Origin: Nitrospirota bacterium
Lineage (GTDB): Bacteria; Nitrospirota; UBA9217
NCBI GenBank assembly: GCA_029858565.1
Contig: JAOUEV010000002.1
Location: 96,001-160,000 of the forward strand
Reading direction: 5' to 3'
DNA length: 64,000 nucleotides
Numbering within the stretch: the stretch's first letter is position 1; each line of letters opens with the position of its first letter. The position numbers and the translations under genes were made by a program. Shown here one piece after another: positions 17,861-64,000 of the stretch. Below the pieces are notes generated by a model. The model was not told the DNA's origin and ran no database searches. It was given only the letters and a program-made list of their open reading frames with translations.

Positions 17861-19229
17861 AGCGCTGTTCATTGGAGCGAAAGAAGGCGTCAAGCTTTCT
17901 TTTTGCACTCTGCTGGTATTCTCGCTTCTGAGCGGTCGCGAGCGTCTTCCCCTGAAACGGTCCGTGATTGCCGGACTCCTTGTCGTGTTCCTTGCCTCTT
18001 TTCTCCTGCTTACCCTGCCGGTCACGTTCGAAATGCGCGAAATTATCGTTCGGATGATAGGGTATGTCTTTGGAATTTTCTTTTTTCTTTCCATTGGCGC
18101 GCTCTTTCACGAGTCAGGGACCGATATCATCGGCCCTTTCCGCAGCGTTGGCGGGAAAAGGGTGCTCCAGATCCCTATCCTGCTGGTCTTAACCATTGGT
18201 TATTTTGCGCCTGACATGGCCGGCTCTGCGCTGTTCATTGCAGACCTTGCATCCATGGCACAGGCGCCTATGCCGGTCTTTCTTGCTTCCGGGCTCGGGT
18301 TTGTCCTGTTCATTGCCGGGACCGCTGCCCTTGGCAGGAAGGTACAGCCTGTGTTCCCGCGTCTTTTTGGTTTGCCCCAGGTGCTGCTGACCCTGGCACT
18401 CATCAAACTGCTTGCCGGCGGGATACGGGGATTTGCCGAACTTACTCTCATCCCGGCGGTGCAGGCTGGTCTCATGAAACTGGTCCACGATGTCATTCAC
18501 CAGACCTTTGTCATGATCCTTGTGCCTGACCACCCCGTGCTTTCGACGACAACATGGAACTTTGTGGGTTTCTTGTTTCGGGAGACCGCGGGGCTTTGGT
18601 TGTCTCTGATCCTGCTGGTAACGCCGCTCGTCCTGTTCGTGATCAAACATTTCCGGGAGCCCCTTCGGTATCCCGGGAGCATTGATCGTCCGTCTCAAAG
18701 ACGCATGTTCATCAGGTCTATTCGCGATCAGCGGCTTCTCAAATCGCTTCCCGTGCTTTTCTTTTTAGCGGTAATCATCATGACCTGGTTCTCCCAGCAG
18801 GACGCGCCCGGTGTAAGCCTGTATCTACCGGACCCTAAACCTGTCGCTGCGGACGGAGATGCATTGAATATTCCCATCCAATCGCCGACAGAAGACCTTC
18901 GCGACGGCGCTATTCATAAATTTTCGCTCCTGATTCGTGACGAACAGGTCAGGTTACTGATCATGAAAAAGCCTGACGGGACGCTCACGGCATGCCTCGA
19001 TGCATGCGAAATATGCCCGCCCGATGGTTATGGCCAATCACGAGAACATGTTGTCTGCCTTTACTGTAAAACCCCCATCCCCTTTGATACGGTCGGGAAG
19101 CCCGGTGGATGCAATCCAATCCCCCTGCCAACTGTTGTGACGGACAAGGAAGTGCGGCTGACAATGAAGGATATCTCCGAAAAATGGGTCCTGGTGAAGT
19201 CCGGGGCATCCAAGACTACTGTAAAATGA
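17841..19229 (+). CDS. FTR1-like multi-TM protein with a C-terminal DUF2318 Fe-S domain
   Basis: N-terminal KEGVK resembles the REGxE motif of FTR1; about 8 TMs; C-terminal LDACEIC...VCLYC...GKPGGCNPIP. Confidence 0.75.
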   Translation: MSRFVLEALFIGAKEGVKLSFCTLLVFSLLSGRERLPLKRSVIAGLLVVFLASFLLLTLPVTFEMREIIVRMIGYVFGIFFFLSIGALFHESGTDIIGPFRSVGGKRVLQIPILLVLTIGYFAPDMAGSALFIADLASMAQAPMPVFLASGLGFVLFIAGTAALGRKVQPVFPRLFGLPQVLLTLALIKLLAGGIRGFAELTLIPAVQAGLMKLVHDVIHQTFVMILVPDHPVLSTTTWNFVGFLFRETAGLWLSLILLVTPLVLFVIKHFREPLRYPGSIDRPSQRRMFIRSIRDQRLLKSLPVLFFLAVIIMTWFSQQDAPGVSLYLPDPKPVAADGDALNIPIQSPTEDLRDGAIHKFSLLIRDEQVRLLIMKKPDGTLTACLDACEICPPDGYGQSREHVVCLYCKTPIPFDTVGKPGGCNPIPLPTVVTDKEVRLTMKDISEKWVLVKSGASKTTVK

Positions 19230-20224
19230 AATCGATTGCCGCCCGAATATATGCATTTCTGCGCTCTGCTGCTCTCACGGTCTGGCTTGTGGGATTGTTC
19301 CTGTTCTATTATCTCTCGATGGCCGTGTGGAGCAATGAAGCTTTTGGTATGTACATTGTCCATCTTTCTTCGAATAACCTGTTTCGTGGGTTTTATCTTT
19401 TATTCCTCTCCAATGTGGTTCTTCGTCTCATAGAGAGACTGCAACGCCTTTGGTCAACAAGGGCGCAATTCATTCTCCAATTGCCCTTGTTGGTGGGGCT
19501 TTTGCTGTTCCTGCCGGCCTTGTTCCTGAGCTTGAACATGAGAAAGACACTGCGAACTCCACCGGTTGGCATGGGAGACATCATCACTGTTCCCCACGGC
19601 ACGGAGAAGTATCAGATCCAGTCTGTTGAGCCTGCGCTCAAGAAACGCTCTCTCAGGAATGAAGGGGCCGCGGTCTTTGATTACGAACCGGGGCTCATGC
19701 TCCTGGATCCTCAGGGAAGAACGTACCGGGTCGGCGCTTTTCCTCCCAGTCCTGTCGGCTCAACCTATATGCATGTGCTGACATTCGGGATCGGCCCTGG
19801 TGTGGAACTTAAAAAGGGGAGAGAAGTGGTATTTCGCGGATATATAGCGTTGCAGTTGACGCCATTTGGAAATGTCGACGTTTTTGACAATTCTGATTTG
19901 CCCTATAAGTTCTATTTGAGCATAATTCCCAATAGTACAATAAGAAAAGGAAAGGAATCCGCGAATACGTATGACCTTGAGAAACCGCGGTATAATGTCA
20001 CTGTCGTAAAGGAAGAACAGACCATTTTAAACGGGGAAACAGATTCTTCGATCAGAATTGATGAAAACCTCACTCTTTCGTTCTTTACGCCATCGGACTG
20101 GGTCATAGTTGAAGTTGTTCAAGATAGGTTTTTGCCATGGTTTGTTCTTTCGATATGCTTAATCTGCGTGGGAATTGTGCCCTTCCTCTTCTCAATGGTG
20201 ATGTCTAAACTAAGGGCGAAGTGA
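19226..20224 (+). CDS. ResB/CcsB-like cytochrome c biogenesis protein (divergent)
   Basis: Three N-terminal TMs, a large periplasmic domain (FGIGP...LQLTPFG...FYLSIIP) and WVIVEVVQD plus a TM, the same layout as 48982-50463. ATGA overlap with the previous gene. Confidence 0.6.
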   Translation: MKSIAARIYAFLRSAALTVWLVGLFLFYYLSMAVWSNEAFGMYIVHLSSNNLFRGFYLLFLSNVVLRLIERLQRLWSTRAQFILQLPLLVGLLLFLPALFLSLNMRKTLRTPPVGMGDIITVPHGTEKYQIQSVEPALKKRSLRNEGAAVFDYEPGLMLLDPQGRTYRVGAFPPSPVGSTYMHVLTFGIGPGVELKKGREVVFRGYIALQLTPFGNVDVFDNSDLPYKFYLSIIPNSTIRKGKESANTYDLEKPRYNVTVVKEEQTILNGETDSSIRIDENLTLSFFTPSDWVIVEVVQDRFLPWFVLSICLICVGIVPFLFSMVMSKLRAK

Positions 20225-20500
20225 ACGGCTTTTTATTTCGTTTGAAATGCGCAATAGTTGTCGTACATAAGTCCCTATCGGACGGCAGATTAGGATGAAC
20301 TTGGCTAGTTATTGTTGAGGAACAAAATTATTAGGTGTTTTTTTTATTAAATTTCATGGCATTATAAAAAAATTGCTTTGAGCATTATAAGTCTAGCATG
20401 TTTGAAAACCAACAAGGCTTTTGAGCGATAACACTCAAAATAAGTCATTGGTGTCTTGTAATATAAAGCTAATATATTGATATTTAAAGAATGCCTATGC

Positions 20501-20516
20501 TGGTATATGAATTGCA
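20501..20516 (+). promoter_or_regulatory. Sigma54 promoter of the multiheme cytochrome operon
   Basis: TGGTATA-TGAA-TTGCA with correct GG/GC spacing, 75 bp upstream of ATG 20591, within an AT-rich intergenic region. Confidence 0.65.
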
Positions 20517-20590
20517 AAGTATATTAATTGAAAAAGTAATGTATATAAGCTTGGAAATCTATTAAACATATTGATTTTTAAGGAGAAGCG

Positions 20591-21391
20591 ATGGCCACTT
20601 GCAATAGATTCACGAAAACCAATCCCTTTATCTCATTGCTTGCGCTTGGCTTGGTTTGTGTATGTTTTGCTGCTCCGGTTGATGCGCTGACAATCGTCGG
20701 TAGCAAGCATGATTTTACATCGACTGCCTCGGGCACGAACAATTTCGCGGATAATTTCTTTGTGCCGGATCCGGCAACGGGATTCCCAACGCCGATCGAT
20801 CAGGTCTGCGTTTTCTGTCATACGCCTCACCATGCAGCGCTCGGCGCAGCCGCCCCTCTGTGGAACAGGACCTCGTCGCCTCCTGATGCGACGTATACAT
20901 TCAAAATGTATACAAGCGAGTCCTTCACGTATGGTCCTGTTGGCGGTCCCACGGGCATCAGCGCCTTGTGCATGAGCTGCCATGATGGTGTATCGTCTAT
21001 CGCGGTGAGCACGCTTCTGAACCCCCCGGGAGACGCGACGCCCGATCAGGTCACTACATCGATGTCCTCCAATGGTGCAATAGGTGCGGTGTATAATGGT
21101 GATCCTCTTACGAATGGATGGGGCGCGAACCTTGGTAATATTGACCCCTTGTTCCCGGGAACCAAGATCATAGACCTGAGCAACGATCATCCGATTTCAT
21201 TCGTCTATCCGACCAGTGCTTCGGGCATCTATCCTTCTACTTCGATAGATACTCGTCTCCGTCTCTTTGGTGCTAGCAAGGACATGGTCGAGTGTGCGAC
21301 CTGTCATTTGGTGCACGACAACCAGTACGAGCCTTTCCTGGCAATGCCGAACAACGGCAGCCAGATGTGTCTATCCTGTCATCAAAAATAG
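20591..21391 (+). CDS. omcE: OmcE-like secreted tetraheme cytochrome c
   Basis: Signal peptide; SKHD...DQVCVFCHTPH...PLWNR...CMSCHDG...DLSNDHP...ECATCH.VHDN...PFL...GSQMCLSCHQK. Motif order matches Geobacter OmcE as I recall it. Confidence 0.8.
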   Translation: MATCNRFTKTNPFISLLALGLVCVCFAAPVDALTIVGSKHDFTSTASGTNNFADNFFVPDPATGFPTPIDQVCVFCHTPHHAALGAAAPLWNRTSSPPDATYTFKMYTSESFTYGPVGGPTGISALCMSCHDGVSSIAVSTLLNPPGDATPDQVTTSMSSNGAIGAVYNGDPLTNGWGANLGNIDPLFPGTKIIDLSNDHPISFVYPTSASGIYPSTSIDTRLRLFGASKDMVECATCHLVHDNQYEPFLAMPNNGSQMCLSCHQK

Positions 21392-21472
21392 ATCCGGAAC
21401 TGCAGCCATCTGTAGTCGGAAATATTTATGAAGAATTATTTAAGAAGAGTGAACGCGGCCTCGGAGGTGGGT

Positions 21473-24214
21473 ATGAAAACGGTGAAGATTTCGATCATTC
21501 TGATGATTGCCATCGTGGCAGTGGCCAGTGCTGCCTTCGCGGCCCCGGTCCGGATCGGGACCCTGGAGCAGAATATCTCGGACCCTGTGCGGGTGGCTTT
21601 GGATGCTCAGGGGAATATATATGTGACCGAGGCACAGCGCGACCTCGTCCTGGTTTATACCAGTAAAGGTCAGCATAAGACTGGCCTTTCGGTTCCTCGA
21701 CCGCTCGGTGTTGCGGTTGACGGGAACGGAACGATTTATGTAAGTTCTGGAAATCAGAGGACCAAAAACCCGGTGTATGTATTCACCCCGGACTTTGTGA
21801 AAGCCGGATGCCTGGGTGGGGCATCATGCGCGGAATTTGTAAAGCCCATCGATGTGGCTGTTGATGGAAAAGGCAATGTGTATGTCGTAGACAATGACCC
21901 TGATTATAGTGTGGTCAAGGTGTATGACGGTGCAGGCTCACTTATCCGTACGATTGCCGGCAGTGGCGCATCGCGGTTGAATAAACCCATGAGTGTTGCC
22001 ATCGACGATACAGCCGGGGAAATCATAATTTCCGATCAGCCGGATGTGATTGTTGCTGGTCAAAAGGCGATTGGCGCACGGATCCAGGCTTTTGATGGAT
22101 CTGGAATTGCTGTGCGGACGATTGGTCAGTATGGGATCGAGGTCGGTCAGTTCAAAGAAGCTACAGATATTGCCATTGATGCCAAGGGGCAGCTGTATGT
22201 TACTGACGGCGCTTTGGGTGTCACTAATATTATCAATGCCTCCGACGGGAACATCGTCGGTATTCTTTATGACGCCGGCAAGCCTGGTTATAACCCTAAC
22301 GGTGTTGTGGTAAGCAAAAATGGACTTGCGTATGTGGTCATGCAAAAAGGCGAAGGCAGCAAGGGCAGGATTGACATTTACGCTCTTGAAGGATATGTGA
22401 CGATGGCGGCTGCGCCTGCAGCGCTGATGTTCGAGGCTCGGCAGTTCTCGGGCAATCCTTCCGCTCAGACGGTATCGGTAAGCAACAGCGGCAGCGGCAC
22501 TCTCAACTGGACGGCATCGAAGAGCCAGTCGTGGATCGTGCTGGGGCAGGATGCAGGTACGGCGGGACCGAATGGATCTTCCGGTCTTCCCGTTGGTATA
22601 GACATCTCCGCGTTGAAGGCGGGAATTTATACAGGCACTGTTGCGGTCGTATCGGATTTCGGCCAGACGGAGTCAGTCGGTGTTTCTGTGAATGTGCTGA
22701 ATCCGCTGATCCTGAATATCAGCAAGAGCACGATGACATTTACTGCTAAGAAGGGCAAAACAGCGGCTGCCCAGTCTCTTGCAACAGGGATCGACAACGT
22801 CACCACGGCAACGGCGTGGAGCGCGAAGTCCGATTCAACGTGGCTTTCTGTAACACCGGCATCGGGAACTGCGACTGCCGCGTCTGCGGTTGCTGGTGCA
22901 AACGTAACGATCAACACCGCTGGCATGGGTGTTGGAACCTATAAGGGTGCTATCACGGTATCTGCCCCCGGAGCTATCGGAGATGGCAGTGCTGTTATGG
23001 TTATGCTTACGATAACCCCGACCACGAAGATCACCGTAAATACGAACAATGAAAATGCCAAGTTCTCGGTAAGCGGCCCGTCGACATACAATGGTAGCGG
23101 CTCATCATGGAGTGTGGAAGATGTTCCTGCGGGCGATTATAAGGTCAACTTTGAGCCTGTTGCCGGCTATCGCAAACCGAAGGCAGCGATGGGGGCTGTC
23201 CCGGCGGATGGCGAGGTTTCCTTCTCGGGAAATTATACGTCCTTCGCTGATATTGCTGCGCGGCGGAATATCCTTGTGGCCGGTGCTCTTGGCGTAAAAG
23301 CGCGTGATTCTGAGGTCAGTGTGTATAGCAATACGGGTGCTCTTTCGCAGGCAATTGATCTGTCAGCGAATTACGGTGCCAGCGTGGCGGTCGCCGATGT
23401 TGACAATGACGGCGCAGAAGAGATTATTGTTAGTGCCGCAGAAAAGGGGAGCAATCCCGCGACGGTTACGGTTATGAAAGCTGACAGGACCGTACTGAAC
23501 AGCTTCGTTCCTTTTGCGAATGCCAATGCTGTTCGGGTCGCGGCAGGAGACATGGATGGAAATGGGTCTGCGGAAATTGTCGTCATCCCAGCGCCTACCA
23601 GAAACGGCGCTGCCGGGACCGCAGCAGTGTATACCTACGACAGTGCGAGCGCGAAGATGATCGAAGTCGCGGCAGTGACCATGTATAAGAAGACGTCAAT
23701 AGTTGACGTTGCTGTCGCGGATATTAATGGTGATGGAAAAGCGGAACTTTTAACACTAGCCGCGTTTGAAGGAAAATCAGCAGGAATGGTAAAAGCCTGG
23801 AGCGTGAGCGCTGCAAAGGGTGGTTGGTCAGCAGCCTTGATCAACGATATCACCATGAACGGTGAAATGATGGGCGCTGCAGTGGCCGGTGGCGATGTCG
23901 ATGGAGACGGTGTAAGTGAGATTATTGTCGGTTCCGCGGCAGATGCGGGTGGTATGCTGACCATCATTAAAGGCGACGGAACTCAGACGAAGGTGAAGGT
24001 CTTTGGCAGGAAGGATGTGGCTGGTATGACGCTGGCCGTTGCTGACCTCGATGGCGACGGTAAGGCTGATCTCGTTGCGGCGCCTGTGCTTGAGAGTGGG
24101 AATGCGAAGAAGGATGGTGCGATCGAGGTCCTGAATTCGAATGGCACCTTGATGTTCTCGATCGATGTCAAGGCGGATGGTGCGAATGTTGCCATCGGTG
24201 AACTTGGTCTCTAA
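21473..24214 (+). CDS. Secreted NHL-repeat beta-propeller / BACON-like Ig / FG-GAP repeat protein
   Basis: NHL repeats (PLGVAVDGNGTIYVS, PIDVAVDGKGNVYVVD); BACON-like domains (NSGSGTLNWTASKSQSW, AWSAKSDSTWLSVTP); five DxD/NxDG repeats. GGAGG RBS before 21473. Confidence 0.85.
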   Translation: MKTVKISIILMIAIVAVASAAFAAPVRIGTLEQNISDPVRVALDAQGNIYVTEAQRDLVLVYTSKGQHKTGLSVPRPLGVAVDGNGTIYVSSGNQRTKNPVYVFTPDFVKAGCLGGASCAEFVKPIDVAVDGKGNVYVVDNDPDYSVVKVYDGAGSLIRTIAGSGASRLNKPMSVAIDDTAGEIIISDQPDVIVAGQKAIGARIQAFDGSGIAVRTIGQYGIEVGQFKEATDIAIDAKGQLYVTDGALGVTNIINASDGNIVGILYDAGKPGYNPNGVVVSKNGLAYVVMQKGEGSKGRIDIYALEGYVTMAAAPAALMFEARQFSGNPSAQTVSVSNSGSGTLNWTASKSQSWIVLGQDAGTAGPNGSSGLPVGIDISALKAGIYTGTVAVVSDFGQTESVGVSVNVLNPLILNISKSTMTFTAKKGKTAAAQSLATGIDNVTTATAWSAKSDSTWLSVTPASGTATAASAVAGANVTINTAGMGVGTYKGAITVSAPGAIGDGSAVMVMLTITPTTKITVNTNNENAKFSVSGPSTYNGSGSSWSVEDVPAGDYKVNFEPVAGYRKPKAAMGAVPADGEVSFSGNYTSFADIAARRNILVAGALGVKARDSEVSVYSNTGALSQAIDLSANYGASVAVADVDNDGAEEIIVSAAEKGSNPATVTVMKADRTVLNSFVPFANANAVRVAAGDMDGNGSAEIVVIPAPTRNGAAGTAAVYTYDSASAKMIEVAAVTMYKKTSIVDVAVADINGDGKAELLTLAAFEGKSAGMVKAWSVSAAKGGWSAALINDITMNGEMMGAAVAGGDVDGDGVSEIIVGSAADAGGMLTIIKGDGTQTKVKVFGRKDVAGMTLAVADLDGDGKADLVAAPVLESGNAKKDGAIEVLNSNGTLMFSIDVKADGANVAIGELGL

Positions 24215-24292
24215 TTCATGATCGTGACCAGCATGAACATGAATGGAATTAAAAGATTGATACGGCGTACTCTGCAAGAAGGAGCGGTGACT

Positions 24293-28174: not shown

Positions 28175-28308
28175 GGGAGGGTGTGGACGTGTATACCGTA
28201 CTGAGGTATAATAGCCAGCCTGCATGCAAGGCTGCAGTTCATAATCAGAAACGCTCAGCCGCATCCGTGGAATCGACCGGCAGAGCTCTTACAGAAGGCG
28301 AGGTACTT

Positions 28309-35124: not shown

Positions 35125-35127
35125 AGC

Positions 35128-39204: not shown

Positions 39205-39382
39205 CGCTGAGACGCTTTCGGAAAAGGATAGAAAGGCCGTCCCCGCGAGGAAGCTTGAGACGAGGAAATTAGCCTTGACGGACACCGTTCATGAACGGTA
39301 CAATCAACCACGCCTGCGCGCCCGGACGTTCCTGCGCCGGAGCAGAGGCGACCTGCCGGGACAGAAGGGCACCAGGAACGGA

Positions 39383-51299: not shown

Positions 51300-51369
51300 A
51301 CGCGGGGGGGCTGCGGCGGATCACCACGACGGACCGGCCGGGACGCGGCACGCGGGAGAAAGGGGTCTG

Positions 51370-55443: not shown

Positions 55444-55504
55444 GCGGATTATAAGATCGCGCGCCTGCGCCGGCGGTCCTGACCGGCCAGGGAGGAGGAA
55501 CAGT

Positions 55505-56434
55505 ATGGCAAAGGTCCTTATTATCAAGCTTGGCTACTCCGAGACCATTGATCCCGAGATCAGCAGGACATCCAGCCTCGGCGATGTTCTGCGGACCACG
55601 GTGATCCTCTATCCCTTCAAGGACAACCATGTCACCTGGCTCGTGGACCAGGCTGCCTATCCGCTGCTCGAGGGCAATCCCTTCATTAAGCGCATACTGG
55701 TCTTCGATCTGGCCACGGTCCTGCAACTCCAGCGGGAGAAGTTCGATACGGTGATCAACCTGGAGAAAGTGCCGGGTGTGTGCGCGTTGGCTGATTCGAT
55801 CTCGGCCTGGAGGCGGTATGGCTTCCGGTTCGATGAGCTCAAGGGCGAGGCGGAGGCTTACGACCGCTGCGAATATATCTTCGACCTCTGCAAGGACTCG
55901 GAGCTCAAGAAGGCTCATAAAGGGAGTTGGCAGCAGATGCTGCTGGAGGTCGTGGGCGCGAAGTGGGATGGCCAGGAATACGTGCTCGGCTACAAGCCGA
56001 AGACGCAGGAAACCTATGATGTGGGGCTGAACTGGGCGGTCGGGTCCAAGTGGCCGAACAAGGCCTGGCCCAAGGAGAACTGGGAAGCGCTCAAGAAGCT
56101 CATGGAGGGGAAGTATTCCTACTCCATGCAGCAAGGGCTTGACAGCCTGCACAAGTATATGGACTGGATCAACTCCTGCCGCCTGCTCGTGACCAATGAC
56201 AGTCTCGGGCTCCATATCGCCCTTGCGCTCAGGAAAAAAGTGGTGGTTCTGTACGGTCCCACGAATCCGAACGAGACCTACTTCTATGGACGGGGAGAGG
56301 TCCTATATCCTTCCGTTGACTATGACTGCGTTCCCTGTCTTGCTCCGGAGTGCACCCAACCACAGGTCTGCATGCAGTTCATCCGGCCTGAAGATGTCAT
56401 ACAACGGATAGATCTGCTGCTGAAAGTGAAATGA
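55505..56434 (+). CDS. Glycosyltransferase family 9 (heptosyltransferase-like)
   Basis: SSLGDVLRTT, KWPNKAWP, VTNDSLGLHIALAL, LYGPT. Confidence 0.88.
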   Translation: MAKVLIIKLGYSETIDPEISRTSSLGDVLRTTVILYPFKDNHVTWLVDQAAYPLLEGNPFIKRILVFDLATVLQLQREKFDTVINLEKVPGVCALADSISAWRRYGFRFDELKGEAEAYDRCEYIFDLCKDSELKKAHKGSWQQMLLEVVGAKWDGQEYVLGYKPKTQETYDVGLNWAVGSKWPNKAWPKENWEALKKLMEGKYSYSMQQGLDSLHKYMDWINSCRLLVTNDSLGLHIALALRKKVVVLYGPTNPNETYFYGRGEVLYPSVDYDCVPCLAPECTQPQVCMQFIRPEDVIQRIDLLLKVK

Positions 56435-58410: not shown

Positions 58411-58420
58411 TGACAACAGC

Positions 58421-59803
58421 ATGAACATCGCGCTAATCATCCCGCCTTCGCCGGGCAGGACAAACATCATCAGGATGATCGACTGCAGCCATGAGGCGAA
58501 GGCGAACTATCTCTGGCAGCCGAATGACTTCATGATCATCACCTCCCGGGCCGAGCCCGATGACGACGTGCAGTTCGTCGACGGCACGGCTGATGCGCTG
58601 GATAACGACCAGTTCCTGGAACTGATCGATGCTGTCCGGGGGGATCTTGTGATCATCGCGCTCTCCAGCGTGTGCTGGGAGTCCGACTACGCCTATTTTC
58701 TGAAGGTCAAAGAGCGGTTCGCGGCGATACCACTCTATGTGCTGGGCGACATCTTCCTTGAGGAGGCTTATCGTCGACACATCCTCGAACACTGTGACGG
58801 GATCATTGTCAATCCTTACGTGCTGGACCTGCGGTCCCTCGCGACGCAGCGAAAGGACAGGACCGGGAGACTTTCGGGAGTCTGTATCACGGCCGATGGC
58901 CCGTTGTTTCCCGAAGGCAAGCGGGCGGTTGCCGTTACTAGCAGCCCCCCGCGTCACGAGCTGTTCCAGAAGACCGGCTACCGATTTCCTTTCGCAATGC
59001 ATGTCCGCTTCACGACGGTTACCACCATGTGGGGCTGCCCCTTCACCTGCACATACTGCTCGGACTCGAAATTCCCCCCTATCCTACGGTCCTACGAGGA
59101 TGTTCTACGCGAGCTCGTCCATGTCGCGAATCTCGGCATCCGAGAGATTTTCTTCGCGGACAAGGTCTTCGGATTCAACCGGAAGAGCATTGATCCGTTG
59201 CTCGCGACAATGCGCGAGCGGTTTTCCTTCTCCTGGAGCTGTTATTTCCATCCGCAGCTCTGTGATCGGAACCTCCTCCAGGACATGAAGGCGGCCGGCT
59301 GCCACACGATTATCATCGGCGTAGATTCGGCCGATGTCCGCTCGCTGAAACGATATCGCCGCTACACAGAGAGGGAGCAGGTCGAACGCGTCATAGCGGA
59401 AGCAAACGATCTGCGGATCGATGTTTGTGCGGACTTCATCCTAGGGCTGGAGCATGAAGACGAAGCGGACATCCTTCGCACGATCGAATATGCCCTTGAA
59501 ATTCCAATCGATTTCGCATCGTTCAATATTGCCGCGCCACTGCCCGGGTCGGATATCAGGCGGTCGATGAATGAGGCGGGGGTCTTGAAGTTCGGCAGGG
59601 AAGGCTTCGATACCTGTGGACGGTCGGGGATCCTGGGCAACAGGAACATCACTGCGAGACGCCTGCGCGAACTGCGGAAAACTGCGTTCCGCCGTTTCTA
59701 CCTGCGGCCATCCTATCTTCTGCGACGACTTCGGCGGACGAGGTCGGTGGAACATCTGCTAATCCAGGTGCAGGAAATGATCTCGATGATCCGGAAGATC
59801 TGA
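58421..59803 (+). CDS. Radical SAM protein with a divergent B12-binding-type N-terminus
   Basis: WGCPFTCTYC, FFADKVF, FNIAAPLPGS, FYLRP. Confidence 0.82.
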   Translation: MNIALIIPPSPGRTNIIRMIDCSHEAKANYLWQPNDFMIITSRAEPDDDVQFVDGTADALDNDQFLELIDAVRGDLVIIALSSVCWESDYAYFLKVKERFAAIPLYVLGDIFLEEAYRRHILEHCDGIIVNPYVLDLRSLATQRKDRTGRLSGVCITADGPLFPEGKRAVAVTSSPPRHELFQKTGYRFPFAMHVRFTTVTTMWGCPFTCTYCSDSKFPPILRSYEDVLRELVHVANLGIREIFFADKVFGFNRKSIDPLLATMRERFSFSWSCYFHPQLCDRNLLQDMKAAGCHTIIIGVDSADVRSLKRYRRYTEREQVERVIAEANDLRIDVCADFILGLEHEDEADILRTIEYALEIPIDFASFNIAAPLPGSDIRRSMNEAGVLKFGREGFDTCGRSGILGNRNITARRLRELRKTAFRRFYLRPSYLLRRLRRTRSVEHLLIQVQEMISMIRKI

Positions 59804-59854
59804 CGACGGACAGCCGACTAGGATCCCCTACCGCTAGCCGACAGGAAGACAACG

Positions 59855-61333
59855 ATGAAGGATGAACGGACCGTACTGCTGATTAATCCCTGCTACGACA
59901 AAAGCGATATGCTGGGCCCCTTTGCACGCTATATTTCTTCCCAGCTCCCGCTGTCGCTCGGACTGCTTGCCGGCTATTTGCTGGAAAGAGGGATTCCCGT
60001 TGAGATTGTTGACGAACAGTTGCGGCAGGCCGACGGCCAGCACTTGCGCGCTCTCCTTGATACGGGGGCAGTCCGCGTCGTCGGGATCTCGGTTCTCACC
60101 CTGACCTCAGCACGGGCATATGAGCTAGGAGCCCTGATCAAGCGTTTGTGGCCGCAGATAACCGTTGTCATGGGCGGTGTTCATGTCACGCTTCTGCCCG
60201 AAGAGCCCCTCGCCAGGGGGGCTGCAGACATTGTGGTGAGAAATGAGGGCGAGGTCACCTTTTATGAGATCGTCAGCCGAATCCACGCTGGTAGCCCGTA
60301 CGGCGATGTTGTGGGGGTCTCCTACGTGCGGGAAGGAAAGGTCGTTCATAATCCGGAGCGGACGCCCGTGGACGAGCTCGACAAGCTTCCTGTCTTCCCC
60401 TATCACCTTTTTGAGGAGAATAGTGCACGATACCAATTTGGCAATATGCTGACATCACGCGGATGTCCCTACGAATGCATCTTTTGCTCCCAGCGGGCGA
60501 TAAGCGGTCGCCGATACCGCGTTCAATCTCCTGAGCGGACCTTTCGGGAGCTTGAGCGGCTTGTGTTCCACTATGGTCAGAGGTTCATTTTCATCAATGA
60601 TGATAATTTCCTGGTACAACCGCAAAAGGTGCGTAGATTGTGCGAACTGATCATTCGACGGGGATTTCCTGACGATGTCAGGATCGGATTCAACGGGCGG
60701 GGCGATTCGCTGGACCCAGACCTGCTCCGGGACATGCGAGCAGCCCGTTTTTCTTTCATACTTATCGGTTTTGAGACCGGTTCCGAACGGCTGATGAGCA
60801 TGGTAAAGAAGGGTGAGACGGTCAGCCAGATCGCTGAGGGGGTCAGGGTGGCAAAAGAGGCCGGCTTCACCGTAGGCGGACAGTTTATCCTTGGTTTTCC
60901 GACAGAGACGCGGCGCGAGTCTTTCCGGACCATTTGGCATGCACTTCGGCTCCCTATTGATTTCGTCCGGTTCAATCTCCTGGTGCCGTATCCAGGGACC
61001 GAGGTGCACGCTATGGTGCGTCGAGAAAAGGATCGCCTGGCACACGACTGGACCGGCTATGCGACCCATGGGGGGCTCACGGGAAAGGGCGCGCCCTATG
61101 TTCCGGAGGGACGGTCTGCGCGGGAGCTGGTGTCCCTTCAGTGGATCGGCCATCTGCTCTTCTACCTCCGTCCCCGCCAGCTCCTGAACATGGGGAACAT
61201 GCGGTATGCCACGGGCGGGCAGGTAATGGTGCCCGAGACCACCTCGCTGCGGGGTTGTCTTGAGTTTCTGGGATTTGCCTTCCAGTTGCTCATGTACCTG
61301 GTCGTAGGTGCGGTACGGAGCAAAAAGCGCTGA
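59855..61333 (+). CDS. B12-binding-domain radical SAM protein
   Basis: VVGIS, MGGVH, RNEGE, SRGCPYECIFC, GFETGS, PYPGT. Confidence 0.9.
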   Translation: MKDERTVLLINPCYDKSDMLGPFARYISSQLPLSLGLLAGYLLERGIPVEIVDEQLRQADGQHLRALLDTGAVRVVGISVLTLTSARAYELGALIKRLWPQITVVMGGVHVTLLPEEPLARGAADIVVRNEGEVTFYEIVSRIHAGSPYGDVVGVSYVREGKVVHNPERTPVDELDKLPVFPYHLFEENSARYQFGNMLTSRGCPYECIFCSQRAISGRRYRVQSPERTFRELERLVFHYGQRFIFINDDNFLVQPQKVRRLCELIIRRGFPDDVRIGFNGRGDSLDPDLLRDMRAARFSFILIGFETGSERLMSMVKKGETVSQIAEGVRVAKEAGFTVGGQFILGFPTETRRESFRTIWHALRLPIDFVRFNLLVPYPGTEVHAMVRREKDRLAHDWTGYATHGGLTGKGAPYVPEGRSARELVSLQWIGHLLFYLRPRQLLNMGNMRYATGGQVMVPETTSLRGCLEFLGFAFQLLMYLVVGAVRSKKR

Positions 61334-61534: not shown

Positions 61535-62496
61535 ATGAACATGGATGTGACAACCTGGATCCGTCGCAATCCAAAGAAGTCCCTGGTGATCTCGCTGGCG
61601 CTGTTTTTCATCGGTCTTGATTTTACCCTGGAAAAGATCTATTTTCCCGTGGACCTGAACACTCGATCCGCCCGGATCCACCATGTTTTTTACCATCACG
61701 GACTGAAGGAGAACTGCCACTCCGAAGGATGGTGGGGACACGTCTATTACATCATCGAGACGAACTCCCTCGGCTTCAAGGACCGCAGGGTCCGTGATGT
61801 TCCGCTGCGAACAGCGGGACGGCGGATCGTGTTCATGGGGGACTCCTTTACGGAAGGCCTTGGCATACCTGAGGACAAGACCTTTGTCGGGCTTGTGGAG
61901 GACCTGTTCGGAGGCAGGGGATATGACATCCTGAACGCCGGTGTGGTTTCCTCCTCTCCGATCGTGTATTACAACAAGACGAAGTACTATGTGGAAAAGA
62001 AAGGATTGCAGATCAACGACCTGTTCGTTTTCCTCGACATTTCCGATGTGCATGACGAATATATTTACCAGGAGAAGGAACACTTCGTTTCTCGTGAGGA
62101 AGAGGGGTTGTCCGAAAGGGTTATCGATGCCGTGGACCAATTCCTGGTCGACAATTCCTTACTCTCACCATCGCGGTTTATCCCTGGACCAATCTGGTGG
62201 ATCGGCGGGACCAGGAATCCATCCAGGTGACATTCTGGAGGGATTTCGCGAAGCGTAATAACATCGGATTTCTCAATTATTTCCCCTTGTTCATAAATAA
62301 CACTCCCGCGCAGGTCATTAACGACCGGTATTGCATTAAGAACGACATTCACTGGAACGAGGCAGGCCATGCCTTGATCGCGGGCCAGCTTATCGACTTG
62401 ATCCGGAACCGGGAGGGCGGGAACCGAAAATTACGTGCTGAGTATTTCCCACCCCGGGGATGGGGCTGGCAAAGAAAAGTTTCCTCCGGTAGATGA
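61535..62496 (+). pseudogene. SGNH-fold protein split by a frameshifting deletion near 62160
   Basis: One frame carries NSLGFKD, MGDSFTEG and NAGVVS. The C-terminal LTIAVYPW...FWRDF...NDIHWNEAGH (catalytic DxH) lies in a different frame. Confidence 0.7.
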
Positions 62497-62652
62497 TCTC
62501 CGATTTCACAATCCCTTCCGGTAGTGCGGCATTGGTGAGGCGCAAAAGATCCGCCTGCAAACCCAGCGAAATCCCAAACAGGAGAAAACCATATTGACAT
62601 ACCTGTCATGTTATGGGAATATGCATAACAAATTGAATTTATAGGAATTTCA

Positions 62653-63723
62653 ATGTCTGATGAGTTTCGCATCGACAGCCATAAGCTTATCTTCCATCCG
62701 CGGCGGGTGGCGGAATGGTTGGCTGGCGATCAGATATATCCTCTGTACGCCGAGATATCCCCTTCCGGTGCCTGCAATCATCGTTGTACCTTCTGCGCTC
62801 TCGATTACATGGAATATAAGCCACGGTTCCTTGATACGGCCGTTCTGAAGGACCGCCTCACGGAAATGGGCCGTCTGGGGCTTAAAAGCGTCATGTATGG
62901 AGGAGAAGGAGAGCCCTTTCTGCACAAGGACATTGGTGAGATCATCGTTCATACGAAACGATCGGGTATCGATGTCGGGATAACCACGAACGGCGTGCTG
63001 CTGACCGAGAAGCTCTCGACCCGTATCCTTGGCAGCACGGCCTGGATCAAGGTCAGCCTGAACGCAGGATGCGCGGAAACCTACGCCAAGGTCCACCGGA
63101 CCAAGCCTGATGATTTCGACCGGGTCTTCGAGAACCTCAAGATGGCCCTCAAGATCAAGCAGGAGTCCGGCGCCGGCTGCACCATCGGCGTGCAGACCCT
63201 GTTGCTTCCGGAGAATGCCCAGGAGGTCGAACAGCTTGCTGAGAAGGCAAAGGAGACCGGTCTCCGATACGTGGTCGTCAAACCCTATTCCCAGCATCAT
63301 AAGAGCCGCACCCAGACCTATCGTGATGTGGACTATGCACAATTCCATCACCTCAGGGATAAGCTTGCCCGGTTCCAGAGCAAGGACTTCAGCGTTATCT
63401 TCCGCGAACAGACCATGAAAAAGATGAAGCGCACGATGCGGGGGTATGAACGCTGTCTGGCGCTGCCTTTTTGGTCCTATATCGATTCGGGCGGCAATGT
63501 ATGGGGTTGCAGCGCCTATCTTGGCGATGACCGGTTCCGGTACGGGAACATTCACGAACAGACCTTTGAACAGATCTGGACCGGGCCGCTTCGCAAGGCG
63601 AACCTGAGCATGGTGGCCGAACAGCTCGATCCCGAAGCGTGTCGCATGAACTGCCGGATGGATGAGATCAATCTCTACCTCTGGGAACTTACCCATCCGA
63701 AGGACCATGTGAATTTCATATAA
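62653..63723 (+). CDS. Radical SAM protein with a SPASM/twitch domain
   Basis: ACNHRCTFC, GGEGEP, TTNG, C...GNVWGC...GNI...CRMNC. Confidence 0.9.
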   Translation: MSDEFRIDSHKLIFHPRRVAEWLAGDQIYPLYAEISPSGACNHRCTFCALDYMEYKPRFLDTAVLKDRLTEMGRLGLKSVMYGGEGEPFLHKDIGEIIVHTKRSGIDVGITTNGVLLTEKLSTRILGSTAWIKVSLNAGCAETYAKVHRTKPDDFDRVFENLKMALKIKQESGAGCTIGVQTLLLPENAQEVEQLAEKAKETGLRYVVVKPYSQHHKSRTQTYRDVDYAQFHHLRDKLARFQSKDFSVIFREQTMKKMKRTMRGYERCLALPFWSYIDSGGNVWGCSAYLGDDRFRYGNIHEQTFEQIWTGPLRKANLSMVAEQLDPEACRMNCRMDEINLYLWELTHPKDHVNFI

Positions 63724-63765
63724 ACAGTAGCCAGTAGCATGTAGCCAGTAGCCGGGAACATATCC

Positions 63766-64000
63766 ATGCGAAAAGAAATATCAAAGGATATATTGCAAAA
63801 GCTCTTCACCACCATGCTTACCATCCGCACGGTGGAGGAGCGGGTGGCCGAGCTCTATTCCGAACAGGAAATGAAATGTCCGGTCCACCTCTGCACAGGG
63901 CAGGAAGCGATCGCCGCGGGTGTCTGTTCCCATCTTGCGAAGGATGATACGATCTTCAGCACCCACCGGTCCCATGGACACTGCATCGCTAAAGGGATGG
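63766..64000 (+). CDS. TPP-dependent dehydrogenase E1 alpha subunit (5' part, truncated by the window end)
   Basis: Manual translation MRKEISKDILQKLFTTMLTIRTVEERVAELY...CPVHLCTGQEA...STHRSHGHCIAKG. Confidence 0.85.
   Translation, partial: MRKEISKDILQKLFTTMLTIRTVEERVAELYSEQEMKCPVHLCTGQEAIAAGVCSHLAKDDTIFSTHRSHGHCIAKGM

What the first reader, a model, noticed from the sequence alone, without database searches (positions are those of the whole stretch)
19226..64000. Candidate cytochrome-nanowire locus with its own maturation and protein-glycosylation/glycan-tailoring machinery
Seen: a discrete operon (sigma54 box to terminator) encoding an OmcE-like tetraheme, a propeller/Ig surface protein and two Ser/Thr-rich giant cytochromes (about 50 heme motifs in total). 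It is followed by interleaved heme-attachment genes, six GT-C glycosyltransferases, four B12-type radical SAMs, three SGNH proteins, GT9, an FAD enzyme, RS-SPASM and E1-alpha. Established, from memory and to be verified: Geobacter OmcE polymerises into conductive filaments reported to carry glycan-like modifications, and PMT/TMTC enzymes O-glycosylate Ser/Thr of secreted proteins. Inference: one integrated system that builds, heme-loads, glycosylates and chemically decorates extracellular cytochrome filaments. No Wzx/Wzy, O-antigen ligase or outer-membrane porin is recognisable in the window, which favours protein targets over LPS, but the locus continues past the window end.
Basis: partly seen in the sequence, partly recalled or inferred. 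Interest (0 to 1): 0.9.

Follow-up and report, generated by a model that had tools for sequence, protein, structure and literature searches.

The report
Glycosylation island beside OmcE-type cytochromes
A probable Nitrospirota genome carries an OmcE-like "nanowire" cytochrome operon next to a 50-kb block of periplasmic sugar-adding and sugar-tailoring genes that holds its own heme-attachment genes; this pairing was recently described in Geobacter relatives, so the locus extends a known pattern.

Summary
Window 20591-30852 is a four-gene operon: an OmcE homolog (PDB 7TFS, E 1e-22), a 928-aa propeller protein, and 31- and 15-heme Ser/Thr-rich cytochromes (50 heme motifs in all). A sigma54-type box lies upstream and is conserved in 5 of 5 orthologous promoters. 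A strong terminator follows the operon.

Next comes a roughly 50-kb island that runs 18 kb past the window. It holds six GT-C enzymes plus two tentative ones, three polyprenyl-phosphate-type GT2s, a GT9, nine radical SAM enzymes, three SGNH proteins, a carbamoyltransferase, E1 alpha/beta, and three ResB-like genes plus CcsA. No Wzx, Wzy, ligase or exporter was found.

The same adjacency recurs in other Nitrospirota (G019, G024, G047, L092) and in Desulfuromonadales. ResB/CcsA overlaps GT-C genes in one operon and belongs to a CcsA clade found beside OmcE-like clusters across phyla. mBio 2026 (PMC13712944) already reports omcE clusters followed by 15-70 glycosylation genes in Desulfuromonadia.

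Against it: same-genus genomes keep the operon without the adjacent island, genome-level co-occurrence is nil (odds ratio 1.27), co-localisation is only about 2.5-fold enriched, and no glycan acceptor is shown.

Verdict: a new variant of a known kind.

The parts
17841..19229 (+).
   Evidence: Pfam PF10080 at 84 bits. The same gene pair recurs twice on G047:C20.
19226..20224 (+). Short ResB-like protein (P0001), the first of three ResB-like genes
   Evidence: Atlas: 25 of 30 hits fall in the ResB set. BLASTP E 9e-8 to the window's ResB and 1e-5 to the ORF at 39973-41016.
20501..20516 (+). Sigma54-type -24/-12 box, TGGTAT-N5-TTGCA
   Evidence: Two mismatches to the consensus and not above chance as a pattern. 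Conserved in 5 of 5 orthologous upstream regions.
20591..21391 (+). OmcE-like tetraheme cytochrome with a signal peptide
   Evidence: PDB 7tfs_A at E 1.1e-22 and 9yuq_N at E 3.5e-19. Four CXXCH motifs plus H40, H80, H200 and H242 are invariant in 11 sequences.
21428..24214 (+). 928-aa secreted NHL propeller, BACON Ig-like and FG-GAP propeller protein
   Evidence: Pfam. Orthologs follow the OmcE-like gene in G001, G002, G003, G019 and G024.
24218..28174 (+). 31-heme-motif cytochrome built of repeated roughly 110-aa CX4CH/CXXCH/CXXCH modules; Ser+Thr fraction 0.25
28150..30852 (+). 15-heme-motif cytochrome; the true start is probably near 28306, ahead of a signal-anchor segment
30883..30908 (.). 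Hairpin terminator with an 11-bp stem and a T-run on the + strand, between convergent units
31537..32775 (-). PMT-like GT-C glycosyltransferase (PMT_a)
   Evidence: Pfam PMT at 60.7 bits and PMT_2 at 56 bits.
32762..33712 (-). Unknown periplasmic protein. By eye only, it resembles the two aligned paralogs at 45228-45935 and the N-half of 47547-48989
   Evidence: No Pfam match. BLASTP gave no match to those two ORFs. Shared sequence motifs were seen by eye in the printout.
33709..35124 (-). B12-binding radical SAM (a)
   Evidence: Pfam. Best NCBIfam match is HpnJ at 214 bits, below the 578-bit cut-off.
35128..36546 (-). FAD amine-oxidase-type oxidoreductase
   Evidence: Pfam. PRK07208-like, below cut-off.
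36543..38009 (-). B12-binding radical SAM (b)
   Evidence: Pfam.
37955..39172 (-). SGNH/GDSL protein (a) with an N-terminal membrane anchor
   Evidence: Pfam Lipase_GDSL_2.
39275..41016 (+). Two ORFs. The second (39973-41016) is ResB-like in its C-terminal part
   Evidence: 24.8% identity over 262 aa to the window's ResB, E 3e-12.
41659..43932 (-). Protein of about 9 TM helices plus TPR repeats; GT39/PMT_2-like by its homologs only
   Evidence: TPR Pfam. Not hit by the TMTC-like N-domain HMM. 13 of 59 homologs carry PF13231.
43978..45246 (-). PMT-like GT-C glycosyltransferase (PMT_b)
   Evidence: Pfam PMT and PMT_2. 30% identical to PMT_a.
45228..45935 (-). Unknown periplasmic protein (UPF0489-like is a lead only)
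45965..47137 (-). SGNH/AlgX-like protein (b)
   Evidence: Pfam Lipase_GDSL_2 and ALGX.
47547..48989 (+). Lipoprotein-like protein with an unknown N-domain plus TPR repeats; first gene of a long + strand operon
   Evidence: A homolog lies in the Desulfuromonadales locus L112.
48982..50463 (+). ResB/CcsB paralog, overlapping both neighbouring genes
   Evidence: Pfam ResB at 101.7 bits. The housekeeping copy on C73 scores 340 bits.
50460..51299 (+). CcsA heme-handling subunit with a WWD motif and three invariant His
   Evidence: Pfam. Motifs. Lies in a clade of 12 in the CcsA tree.
51277..53334 (+). TMTC-like GT-C plus TPR protein (FDD motif)
53467..55443 (+). TMTC-like GT-C plus TPR protein (FDD motif)
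55130..56434 (+). Divergent GT9 (heptosyltransferase-like); the true start is probably near 55445
   Evidence: Pfam at 52 bits. Four better GT9 copies lie elsewhere in G000.
56431..58410 (+). TMTC-like GT-C plus TPR protein (LDE motif); this one was modelled
   Evidence: AF2 pLDDT 85. Residues 24-461 align to Pmt1-Pmt2 6p2r_B at Z 21.1 over 370 aa.
58421..59803 (+). Radical SAM related to B12-type enzymes, without a B12 Pfam match
59855..61333 (+). B12-binding radical SAM (c)
61535..62230 (+). Third SGNH candidate (GDS block only)
   Evidence: No Pfam match. Motif seen.
62653..63723 (+). Radical SAM/SPASM enzyme
63766..64000 (+). E1-alpha (TPP enzyme), cut by the window end. The island runs on to contig position C41:178084
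   Evidence: Beyond the window lie E1-beta, GT2, SPASM, B12-radical SAM d, a weak GT-C, a radical SAM, a YfhO-like protein, an epimerase/dehydratase, an ArnC/PgfS-like GT2, B12-radical SAM e, GT2, a carbamoyltransferase and a flippase-like protein. Then come rsmI, nadE and larC.

Best explanation
The locus joins two units.

(1) A sigma54-dependent operon for extracellular electron transfer. It encodes an OmcE-family tetraheme subunit that keeps all eight heme-ligating histidines, including the N-terminal one. It also encodes a large double-propeller surface protein and two giant repeat-built multiheme cytochromes.

(2) A facultative island of about 38 genes and 50 kb for extracytoplasmic glycosylation. 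GT2 enzymes of the ArnC/GtrB/PgfS type load sugars onto polyprenyl phosphate, and a flippase-like protein is present. PMT-like and TMTC-like GT-C enzymes then transfer the sugars in the periplasm, with their TPR domains binding protein substrates. SGNH, carbamoyl, TPP-dependent, FAD and radical SAM enzymes tailor the sugars.

A specialised ResB/CcsA heme lyase is co-transcribed with the GT-C genes. I infer that heme attachment and O-glycosylation act on the same secreted apocytochromes, most likely the neighbouring OmcE-like subunit and the Ser/Thr-rich giant cytochromes, before export.

Shown here: gene content, homologies, the GT-C fold, operon overlaps and recurrent adjacency. Inferred: the acceptors, the sugars, filament formation and every tailoring chemistry.
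For: - OmcE homology and conserved ligands.
- Orthologous operons with a conserved sigma54 box in 5 of 5 cases.
- GT-C fold of TPR659: Z 21.1 to Pmt1-Pmt2, 19.4 to Pmt4 and 18.4 to ArnT. A DD/DE motif is present in 3 of 4 TPR proteins.
- GT2_b resembles PgfS/ArnC, and the flippase-like protein scores above its cut-off.
- None of the 50 ORFs scanned matches a Wzx, Wzy, ligase or exporter family.
- In G000 the TMTC-like and PMT-like genes lie only here, plus one on a 4-kb contig.
- ResB overlaps the upstream gene by 8 nt, CcsA overlaps ResB by 4 nt, and the next GT-C ORF (at its longest call) overlaps CcsA by 23 nt. CcsA keeps the WWD motif and three invariant His.
- In a 31-row CcsA tree, the window copy sits in a clade of 12 (SH-aLRT 99). 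The clade includes the CcsA copies next to OmcE-like clusters of G019, G036, G046/L033, L106, L066 and L068, and those in TPR-GT-C/B12-radical SAM clusters of G041 and G042. The housekeeping copy of G000 (C73) lies elsewhere.
- Adjacency of the operon and island genes recurs in several genomes:
  - In G019 the operon is followed by ResB-like, CcsA, 4 TPR-GT-C, carbamoyltransferase and B12-radical SAM d, all but one on one strand.
  - In G047 the island genes include GT2_c at 76% and B12-radical SAM d at 61% identity.
  - It also recurs in G024 and L092.
  - It recurs in the Desulfuromonadales loci L058 and L072 as well.
- Co-localisation in relatives: 6 of 20 genomes within 30 kb against 2.5 expected, and 4 of 20 within 15 kb against 1.4 expected.
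- Literature: omcE clusters followed by 15-70 glycosylation genes. Glycosylation-like densities are seen on G. sulfurreducens OmcE but not on D. soudanensis OmcE, whose cluster lacks those genes (PMC13712944, passages). OmcE carries 'extensive glycosylations' (PMC9473688, passages).
Against: - No acceptor is shown.
- In same-genus G001 the orthologous operon sits on a 75-kb contig with no island gene. PMT_a was found in 0 of 3 same-genus genomes.
- Among 40 relatives, 20 have both OmcE-like and TPR-GT-C genes, 9 have OmcE-like only, 7 have TPR-GT-C only and 4 have neither. The odds ratio is 1.27 with P = 1.
- Only 5 of 79 OmcE-like loci from many phyla have a TPR-GT-C within 10 kb by tblastn. 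CcsA is present in 13 of 79 and a B12-radical SAM in 1 of 79.
- The co-localisation P values (0.04-0.05) ignore kinship and contig breaks.
- The island's intergenic regions lack the sigma54 box, and its first unit converges on the operon, so co-regulation is not indicated.
- The operon has no beta-barrel or SurA-like gene, unlike other OmcE clusters.
- High Ser/Thr content is usual for extracellular cytochromes and proves nothing.
Confidence: 0.5

Rival explanations
1. The island is a general cell-envelope glycosylation system that merely lies next to the cytochrome operon in some genomes. Its targets would be other surface or periplasmic proteins, pili or S-layer, LPS core or lipid A, or another polymer.
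For: - TPR-GT-C genes are plentiful in 7 relatives with no OmcE-like hit (up to 12 copies), and 9 OmcE-like-positive genomes lack them.
- Same-genus genomes separate the operon from such genes.
- A GT9 and an AlgX-like SGNH are typical of LPS and polysaccharide work.
- The promoters are separate.
Against: - ResB/CcsA, whose only known substrates are apocytochromes c, is embedded in the GT-C operon.
- The adjacency recurs across two phyla.
- No Wzx, Wzy, ligase, initiating transferase or exporter was found.
- Four canonical GT9 copies and an ArnT-like PMT_2 lie elsewhere in G000.
Confidence: 0.3
2. Part of the island acts on the cytochromes or their heme by radical chemistry rather than on sugars. 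This part comprises the B12-radical SAMs, the ResB-like and CcsA genes and the FtrD-like gene. The glycosyltransferases would be a separate add-on.
For: - In G036, a complete genome with no TPR-GT-C hit, a B12-radical SAM directly follows ResB/CcsA between OmcE-like genes.
- B12-radical SAMs sit next to multiheme cytochromes in L109 and L112.
- An FtrD-like, CcsA-like and B12-radical SAM d paralog set lies on G000:C38, and FtrD/short-ResB pairs lie on G047.
Against: - Best family matches are sub-threshold and include sugar- or lipid-modifying enzymes (HpnJ, AprD4).
- Only 1 of 79 OmcE-like loci has a B12-radical SAM within 10 kb.
- No precedent was found or searched for beyond these calls.
Confidence: 0.12
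3. The island decorates a membrane lipid, in the manner of a hopanoid-type hpn cluster or another glycolipid.
For: Weak sub-threshold matches to HpnJ, HpnR, HpnE, HpnA, HpnL and HpnH.
Against: - All matches are far below the curated cut-offs.
- No full squalene-hopene cyclase match was found in G000 (100% complete). Only partial matches inside giant ORFs appeared.
- Eight GT-C genes with TPR domains are not a feature of hpn clusters (recalled).
Confidence: 0.04

Closest known systems
Geobacter-type omcE nanowire cluster with a downstream glycosylation cluster (G. sulfurreducens OmcE, PDB 7TFS; described for Desulfuromonadia in PMC13712944)
   Same: - An OmcE homolog with four CXXCH motifs and four further conserved His.
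- A neighbouring NHL propeller gene and multiheme cytochromes.
- resB/ccsA nearby.
- Tens of genes follow for GT2 and GT39-type transferases, sugar modification and TPR proteins.
- I saw this pattern myself in loci L058, L072, L046 and L080.
   Different: - There is no roughly 750-aa beta-barrel gene.
- There is one 928-aa propeller protein with BACON and FG-GAP parts instead of two propellers of about 370 aa.
- The cytochromes carry 31 and 15 heme motifs instead of 8 to 10.
- The CcsA belongs to another clade than the Desulfuromonadales omcE-adjacent one.
- The island is rich in B12-type and SPASM radical SAMs, which the paper's passages do not mention (0 occurrences of 'radical SAM').
- The host is probably a member of Nitrospirota.
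Desulfuromonas soudanensis OmcE (PDB 9YUQ), the minimal cluster without glycosylation genes
   Same: A tetraheme OmcE homolog (E 3.5e-19).
   Different: That cluster has no glycosylation genes, and its filament shows no extra densities. The window's locus has the island.
Eukaryotic TMTC1-4 and PMT protein O-mannosyltransferases (GT-C; PMC7801869)
   Same: - A multi-TM GT-C domain followed by a TPR domain.
- An acidic DD/DE motif after the first TM helix.
- The top fold matches are Pmt1-Pmt2 and Pmt4.
   Different: - No DUF1736 Pfam match at E 0.01 or better.
- The setting is bacterial and periplasmic.
- The donor sugar and the acceptors are unknown.
Three-component periplasmic glycosylation systems (ArnC/ArnT, GtrA/B/V, Streptococcus Pgf, CsbB/YfhO; recalled apart from the NCBIfam names)
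   Same: A GT2 with C-terminal TM helices, an epimerase/dehydratase, a YfhO-like protein and a flippase-like protein lie in a row beyond the window.
   Different: All matches are below the equivalog cut-offs. There are many more GT-C paralogs and tailoring enzymes here.
System II cytochrome c synthase paralogs dedicated to special cytochromes (for example NrfI/CcsA1 of Wolinella; recalled)
   Same: A second ResB/CcsA pair besides the housekeeping one, placed next to particular cytochrome genes.
   Different: A link to an unusual heme motif was tested and not supported. CX4CH cytochromes accompany this CcsA clade in G000 and G019 (with single CX4CH motifs at L106 and L112) but not in G036, L033, L066 or L068.

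Membership tests
OmcE-type tetraheme nanowire cytochrome | Significant sequence similarity to solved OmcE filament subunits | tested here: met
   7tfs_A at E 1.1e-22 over residues 33-266. 9yuq_N at E 3.5e-19.
OmcE-type tetraheme nanowire cytochrome | Four CXXCH motifs plus four further heme-ligating His, one of which is donated to the next subunit | tested here: met
   All eight are invariant in an 11-sequence alignment. Which His is inter-subunit is not shown here.
OmcE-type tetraheme nanowire cytochrome | Beta-propeller gene in the cluster (criterion of PMC13712944) | tested here: met
   An NHL/FG-GAP protein is the next gene. A propeller homolog is present in 67 of 79 OmcE-like loci.
OmcE-type tetraheme nanowire cytochrome | Large outer-membrane beta-barrel gene in the cluster (criterion of PMC13712944) | tested here: not met
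   The operon has four genes, all otherwise assigned. Four Desulfuromonadales barrel candidates and the G036 563-aa candidate gave no tblastn hit in G000. A remote barrel elsewhere is not excluded.
OmcE-type tetraheme nanowire cytochrome | Polymerises into an extracellular filament | not testable with these tools
   Needs cryo-EM of sheared filaments.
TMTC/PMT-like GT-C protein O-glycosyltransferase | GT-C fold of the membrane domain | tested here: met
   TPR659 model (pLDDT 85): 6p2r_B at Z 21.1, rmsd 4.3 and 370 aligned residues; 9e61_A at Z 19.4; 5f15_A at Z 18.4. Foldseek listed only TPR matches.
TMTC/PMT-like GT-C protein O-glycosyltransferase | C-terminal TPR domain | tested here: met
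   Pfam TPR families in all four proteins.
TMTC/PMT-like GT-C protein O-glycosylransferase | Conserved acidic DD (PMT: DE) motif in the loop after TM1 | tested here: met
   FDD in two proteins and LDE in one. The fourth (41659-43932) lacks it in the alignment.
TMTC/PMT-like GT-C protein O-glycosyltransferase | DUF1736 loop between TM7 and TM8 | tested here: not met
   No DUF1736 match at E 0.01 or better. I therefore call these proteins TMTC-like in architecture, not members of the family.
TMTC/PMT-like GT-C protein O-glycosyltransferase | Transfers sugar to Ser/Thr of proteins | not testable with these tools
   Needs biochemistry or glycoproteomics.
System II cytochrome c synthase (ResB/CcsB + CcsA) | Both subunits present and adjacent, above the Pfam cut-offs | tested here: met
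   ResB at 101.7 bits and Cytochrom_C_asm at 112.2 bits, with a 4-nt overlap.
System II cytochrome c synthase (ResB/CcsB + CcsA) | WWD domain and conserved His of CcsA | tested here: met
   WGSYWSWD is present. H133, H234 and H273 are His in 36 of 36 sequences.
Class B (B12-binding) radical SAM | B12-binding domain plus radical SAM domain | tested here: met
   Met for five proteins. The protein at 58421-59803 has only the radical SAM domain.
Standard Wzx/Wzy- or ABC-dependent LPS/EPS cluster | Initiating transferase, flippase Wzx, polymerase Wzy or ABC exporter, and ligase | tested here: not met
   None appeared among the 50 ORFs scanned with Pfam.
Hopanoid (hpn) cluster | Squalene-hopene cyclase in the genome and Hpn equivalogs above cut-off | tested here: not met
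   Only partial cyclase-repeat matches inside giant ORFs. HpnJ scored 214 bits against a 578-bit cut-off.

The most novel reading that the evidence does not exclude
A cross-phylum 'cytochrome finishing line'. In this reading, a distinct CcsA/ResB heme-lyase clade is co-transcribed with TMTC-like GT-C transferases and B12-radical SAM enzymes. Giant extracellular multiheme cytochromes and OmcE-type subunits would then be heme-loaded, O-glycosylated and radical-modified as one coupled periplasmic process. The B12-radical SAMs would act on the cytochrome or its glycans in a chemistry not yet described.
Probability: 0.22. Interest if true: 0.8.

Novelty: new variant of a known kind. Interest (0 to 1): 0.5.

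Why it matters
Which enzymes glycosylate cytochrome nanowires is unknown, even in Geobacter. The printed evidence is a correlation between gene content and cryo-EM densities.

This locus names concrete candidates: TMTC-like and PMT-like GT-C enzymes fed by ArnC-type GT2s. It also adds one argument the Geobacter loci do not give as plainly, namely a heme lyase embedded in the glycosyltransferase operon.

The locus further shows that the pairing exists outside Desulfuromonadia, with far larger cytochromes. If the link holds, surface glycans that insulate or bundle nanowires could be engineered or predicted from genomes. If it fails, the island is one more envelope glycosylation cluster.

Tried and rejected
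1. CX4CH hypothesis. I asked whether the extra ResB/CcsA serves the 11 CX4CH motifs. CX4CH-rich cytochromes accompany this CcsA clade in G000 and G019, and L106 and L112 each have ORFs with a single CX4CH motif. G036, L033, L066 and L068 have none. In addition, 12 of the 13 CX4CH-bearing loci among the 79 have no such CcsA within reach. Rejected.

2. Horizontal transfer by composition. GC is 0.559 in the operon and 0.597/0.592 in the island, against 0.570 for the genome. There is no signal.

3. Foldseek on the full TPR659 model returned only TPR matches. The profile search of PDB sequences did the same. The GT-C fold appeared only with the exhaustive aligner.

4. The giant cytochromes have no PDB sequence relative at E 0.01 or better.

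5. The first genome-contig scan, with the single protein, found nothing. The alignment scan found 548 relatives among 599 stretches, of which 79 loci were kept.

6. Expression. No RNA holder was listed for the operon.

7. A sigma54 box was sought in the island's intergenic regions. None was found with the pattern used.

8. The G036 563-aa barrel candidate and the Desulfuromonadales barrel candidates gave no hit in G000.

9. Complex prediction was not used, because a filament without its hemes is a poor case. The second structure job was not used either.

10. Rows dropped. Five CcsA-like ORFs longer than 450 aa were left out of the tree, taking 36 rows to 31. TPR-only matches were left out of the TPR-GT-C tallies.

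11. Supplements of PMC13712944 (figures and a table on the clusters) could not be seen. They may list Nitrospirota clusters or radical SAM genes.

12. The OmcE structure paper (Nat Microbiol 2022) is not held. The sites of its extra densities could therefore not be mapped onto this protein.

Full report
**Where the window lies.** The window is G000:C41:96001-160000 on a 183,872-bp contig. Related loci with the most similar gene order come from records titled Nitrospirota, Nitrospirae or Nitrospiraceae MAGs. The genome is therefore probably a member of that phylum.

**The cytochrome operon.** Four co-directional genes fill 20591-30852.
- The first gene encodes a 266-aa protein with a signal peptide and four CXXCH motifs. 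It matches the solved OmcE filament subunit of G. sulfurreducens (7tfs_A, E 1.1e-22) and that of D. soudanensis (9yuq_N, E 3.5e-19).
- In an alignment of 11 homologs, the four CXXCH motifs and H40, H80, H200 and H242 are invariant. These are the eight ligands that four bis-His hemes need.
- The next gene encodes a 928-aa secreted protein with NHL repeats, BACON domains and FG-GAP repeats.
- Two cytochromes follow, with 23 CXXCH plus 8 CX4CH and 12 plus 3 motifs. The operon total is 50. The larger one is built of repeated modules of about 110 aa.
- Their Ser+Thr content is 0.25 and 0.23, against 0.104 for long ORFs of the genome.
- A 366-nt AT-rich spacer precedes the operon and holds TGGTATATGAATTGCA. 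As a pattern this is not above chance. However, the same (T/G)GGTAT-N5-TTGCA box stands 93-111 nt upstream of the orthologous gene in G001, G003, G019 and G024 as well, making 5 of 5.
- An NtrC-type sigma54 activator gene lies at 2776-4155.
- A strong hairpin terminator follows at 30883-30908.

**Conservation of the operon, and how it differs from other OmcE clusters.**
- The order OmcE-like, large propeller, giant cytochrome is kept in G001, G003 and G019. G002 and G024 show the first two genes. G019 carries cytochromes with 41, 26 and 18 heme motifs.
- Other OmcE clusters differ. Desulfuromonadales loci carry two roughly 370-aa propellers, 8- to 10-heme cytochromes and a roughly 750-aa barrel candidate.
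- Many other loci carry a SurA-like PPIase. Neither the barrel nor the PPIase is in this operon.
- A more classical small cluster sits on G000:C131.
- Filament formation by this particular protein is therefore an inference.

**The island.** From 31537 to contig position 178084 (18 kb beyond the window) lie about 38 ORFs.

Glycosyltransferases:
- Two PMT-like proteins match Pfam PMT directly.
- Three paralogous proteins have 9-10 TM helices plus TPR repeats.
- One further TM-plus-TPR protein has homologs that carry PMT_2 in 13 of 59 cases.
- Beyond the window lie a weak PMT_2-like protein, a YfhO-like protein and three GT2s.
- One GT2 is ArnC/PgfS-like and sits with an epimerase/dehydratase and the YfhO-like gene.
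- A flippase-like protein scores above its cut-off.
- There is also a divergent GT9. G000 has four better GT9 copies elsewhere.

Fold test of the TPR proteins:
- I modelled one TPR protein with a 15-sequence alignment (pLDDT 85, pTM 0.81).
- Foldseek saw only the TPR domain.
- The exhaustive aligner matched residues 24-461 to these GT-C enzymes:
  - Pmt1-Pmt2: Z 21.1, 370 residues aligned, rmsd 4.3
  - AglB: Z 20.3
  - Pmt4: Z 19.4
  - STT3: Z 19.0
  - ArnT: Z 18.4
  - PglB: Z 17.6
- Helical models reach Z of about 14 by chance, according to the tool's own note. These matches cover the whole domain and stand above that level.
- The loop after the first TM helix carries FDD, FDD and LDE in the three paralogs. 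This is the motif described for TMTCs (PMC7801869, passages).
- No DUF1736 match was found, so I call these proteins TMTC-like in architecture only.

Tailoring enzymes:
- There are five B12-binding radical SAMs and one relative without the B12 match.
- There are also two SPASM enzymes and one short radical SAM.
- All score far below the equivalog cut-offs. The best matches are HpnJ, BchE and AprD4.
- Three SGNH candidates, an FAD oxidoreductase, E1 alpha/beta and a NodU-like carbamoyltransferase complete the set.
- No Wzx, Wzy, ligase, initiating transferase or exporter family appeared.

**Heme-attachment genes.**
- There are three ResB-like genes.
  - One is a short gene at 19226-20224, overlapping an FtrD-like gene just upstream of the operon.
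  - One is at 39973-41016.
  - One is a full ResB at 48982-50463, followed by CcsA.
- The full ResB/CcsA pair is not the housekeeping one. The housekeeping ResB is on C73 at 340 bits, against 93 bits for this copy in the same genome search.
- ResB overlaps the preceding gene by 8 nt. CcsA overlaps ResB by 4 nt. The next TMTC-like ORF, at its longest call, overlaps CcsA by 23 nt.
- CcsA keeps the WWD motif and three invariant His.
- In a tree of 31 CcsA-like proteins, the window's copy falls in a clade of 12 (SH-aLRT 99).
  - The clade holds the copies beside OmcE-like clusters in G019, G036, G046/L033, L106, L066 and L068.
  - It also holds copies inside or near TPR-GT-C/B12-radical SAM/cytochrome clusters of a Geobacter MAG (G041) and a Desulfuromonadales MAG (G042).
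  - The Desulfuromonadales omcE-adjacent ccsA groups with the housekeeping side.
  - The sample was assembled partly through OmcE loci, so this count is biased.

**Does the island travel with the cytochromes? Evidence for.**
- In G019, a different genus, the operon is followed by ResB-like, CcsA, four TPR-GT-C genes, a carbamoyltransferase (51% identity) and B12-radical SAM d (42-46% identity). All but one are on the same strand.
- G047 has an OmcE cluster followed by GT2_c (76%), GT2_b (38%), B12-radical SAM d (61%), another B12-radical SAM, two FtrD/short-ResB pairs and ResB/CcsA.
- G024 and L092 have TPR-GT-C and GT2 genes within 15 kb.
- Geobacter-type loci L058 and L072 show TPR-GT-C and ArnC-like GT2 genes 4-8 kb downstream of omcE. 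L046 and L080 show the GT2 only.
- The other TPR-GT-C clusters of G041 and G042 also sit with B12-radical SAMs, ResB/CcsA (CcsA 45% identical to the window's) and multiheme cytochromes, one with 26 heme motifs. This counts for little on its own, because Geobacter genomes are dense in cytochrome genes.

**Does the island travel with the cytochromes? Evidence against.**
- In G001 (same genus) the orthologous operon lies on a 75-kb contig without one island gene.
- PMT_a was found in none of G001-G003.
- Among 79 OmcE-like loci from many phyla (plus or minus 10 kb), tblastn found CcsA in 13, GT2 in 9, TPR-GT-C in 5, ResB in 2 and a B12-radical SAM in 1.
- Across 40 relatives, presence of OmcE-like and TPR-GT-C genes is unlinked: 20 have both, 9 only OmcE-like, 7 only TPR-GT-C and 4 neither (odds ratio 1.27).
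- Co-localisation is seen in 4 of 20 genomes at 15 kb (1.4 expected) and 6 of 20 at 30 kb (2.5 expected), with P of about 0.05. This is uncorrected for kinship and contig breaks.
- The island's intergenic regions lack the sigma54 box.

**What is in print.** PMC13712944 (mBio 2026; passages read) makes the following points.
- Desulfuromonadia place omcE clusters next to resB/ccsB.
- A 'second, more common pattern' adds 15 to 70 genes for glycosyltransferases (families 2, 4 and 39), sugar modification, methyltransferases, exporters, TPR proteins and regulators.
- G. sulfurreducens OmcE shows extra densities taken as glycosylation. D. soudanensis OmcE, whose cluster lacks those genes, does not.
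- OmcE homolog clusters occur in Nitrospirota too.

PMC9473688 (passages) speaks of 'extensive glycosylations of OmcE'. The searches found no paper that links radical SAM enzymes or a distinct CcsA clade to these clusters, or that describes a Nitrospirota locus in detail.

**Mechanism and weighing.** The island's make-up is that of periplasmic glycosylation from polyprenyl-phosphate sugars, not of polymer assembly and export. It holds lipid-phosphate-sugar GT2s, a flippase-like protein and many GT-C enzymes with substrate-binding TPR domains. It has no polymerase or exporter.

The heme lyase embedded in the GT-C operon is the strongest internal hint that c-type cytochromes are the clients. The recurrence across two phyla and the published correlation add to it. 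Against this stand the loose genome-level coupling and the lack of any direct evidence. I put the cytochrome-directed reading at 0.5, a general envelope glycosylation system at 0.3, and smaller weights on the other two readings.

**Novelty.** The kind of system, an omcE cluster plus a glycosylation cluster, is known since 2025-2026. This locus is a variant with four distinguishing features:
- a different propeller protein and much larger cytochromes, with no barrel gene;
- a TMTC-like GT-C family;
- nine radical SAM enzymes;
- a distinct CcsA clade co-transcribed with the transferases.

Noticed in passing
window 17841-20224; G047:C20:14650-17081 and 19720-21997 (L143/L144); G000:C38:27126-35319: An FtrD-like membrane protein is paired, with overlapping codons, with a short ResB-like protein just upstream of the OmcE operon. 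The pair recurs twice near the OmcE cluster of G047. On G000:C38 an FtrD-like gene lies with a CcsA-like gene and a 63%-identical paralog of B12-radical SAM d. The function is unknown.
   Followed up: partly
window 32762-33712 (-), 45228-45935 (-), 47547-48300 (+): These look like three paralogous periplasmic domains of unknown function, though only two of them align by BLASTP. Two lie directly downstream of the two PMT-like genes. The atlas gives only a lead, a UPF0489/arginase-deacetylase-like fold. A homolog of the third lies in a Desulfuromonadales TPR-GT-C cluster (L112).
   Followed up: partly
G036:C1 about 921-940 kb (L027/L028): This is a compact OmcE-like cluster in a complete genome. 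It holds three NHL propellers, a SurA-like PPIase, a 563-aa barrel candidate, several OmcE-like genes, ResB, CcsA and a B12-radical SAM, followed by larC. larC also lies just past the island in G000, which suggests a shared ancestral flank.
   Followed up: partly
G019:C3:612657-630187 (L008-L010): The orthologous operon carries cytochromes of 1970, 1323 and 1204 aa with 41, 26 and 18 heme motifs.
   Followed up: no
G000:C131:19859-23013, also C106 and C76: G000 has further OmcE-like and NHL propeller loci. The one on C131 has a SurA-like PPIase next to it, like the common cluster type, and no island genes were seen near it.
   Followed up: no
window 2776-4155 (-) and 10832-13060 (+): An NtrC-type sigma54 activator and a HAMP/PAS histidine kinase lie upstream. 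They are possible regulators of the sigma54-type promoter, but were not tested.
   Followed up: no
window 20831-20833 (residue H81 of the OmcE-like protein): The protein has a ninth histidine next to H80 that none of the 10 aligned relatives has. PMC13712944 speculates that a nine-His OmcE-like protein could act as a filament anchor. There is no evidence for that here.
   Followed up: no
G000:C100:30740-31144 and C84:1117-1602: Giant open frames of 5880 and 2703 aa carry partial terpene-cyclase-like repeats. They were found while looking for a squalene-hopene cyclase.
   Followed up: no
G000:C21 (3997 bp): A fourth TMTC-like gene and two GT2 genes lie on a 4-kb contig. Its true neighbours are unknown and could be another cytochrome locus.
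   Followed up: no
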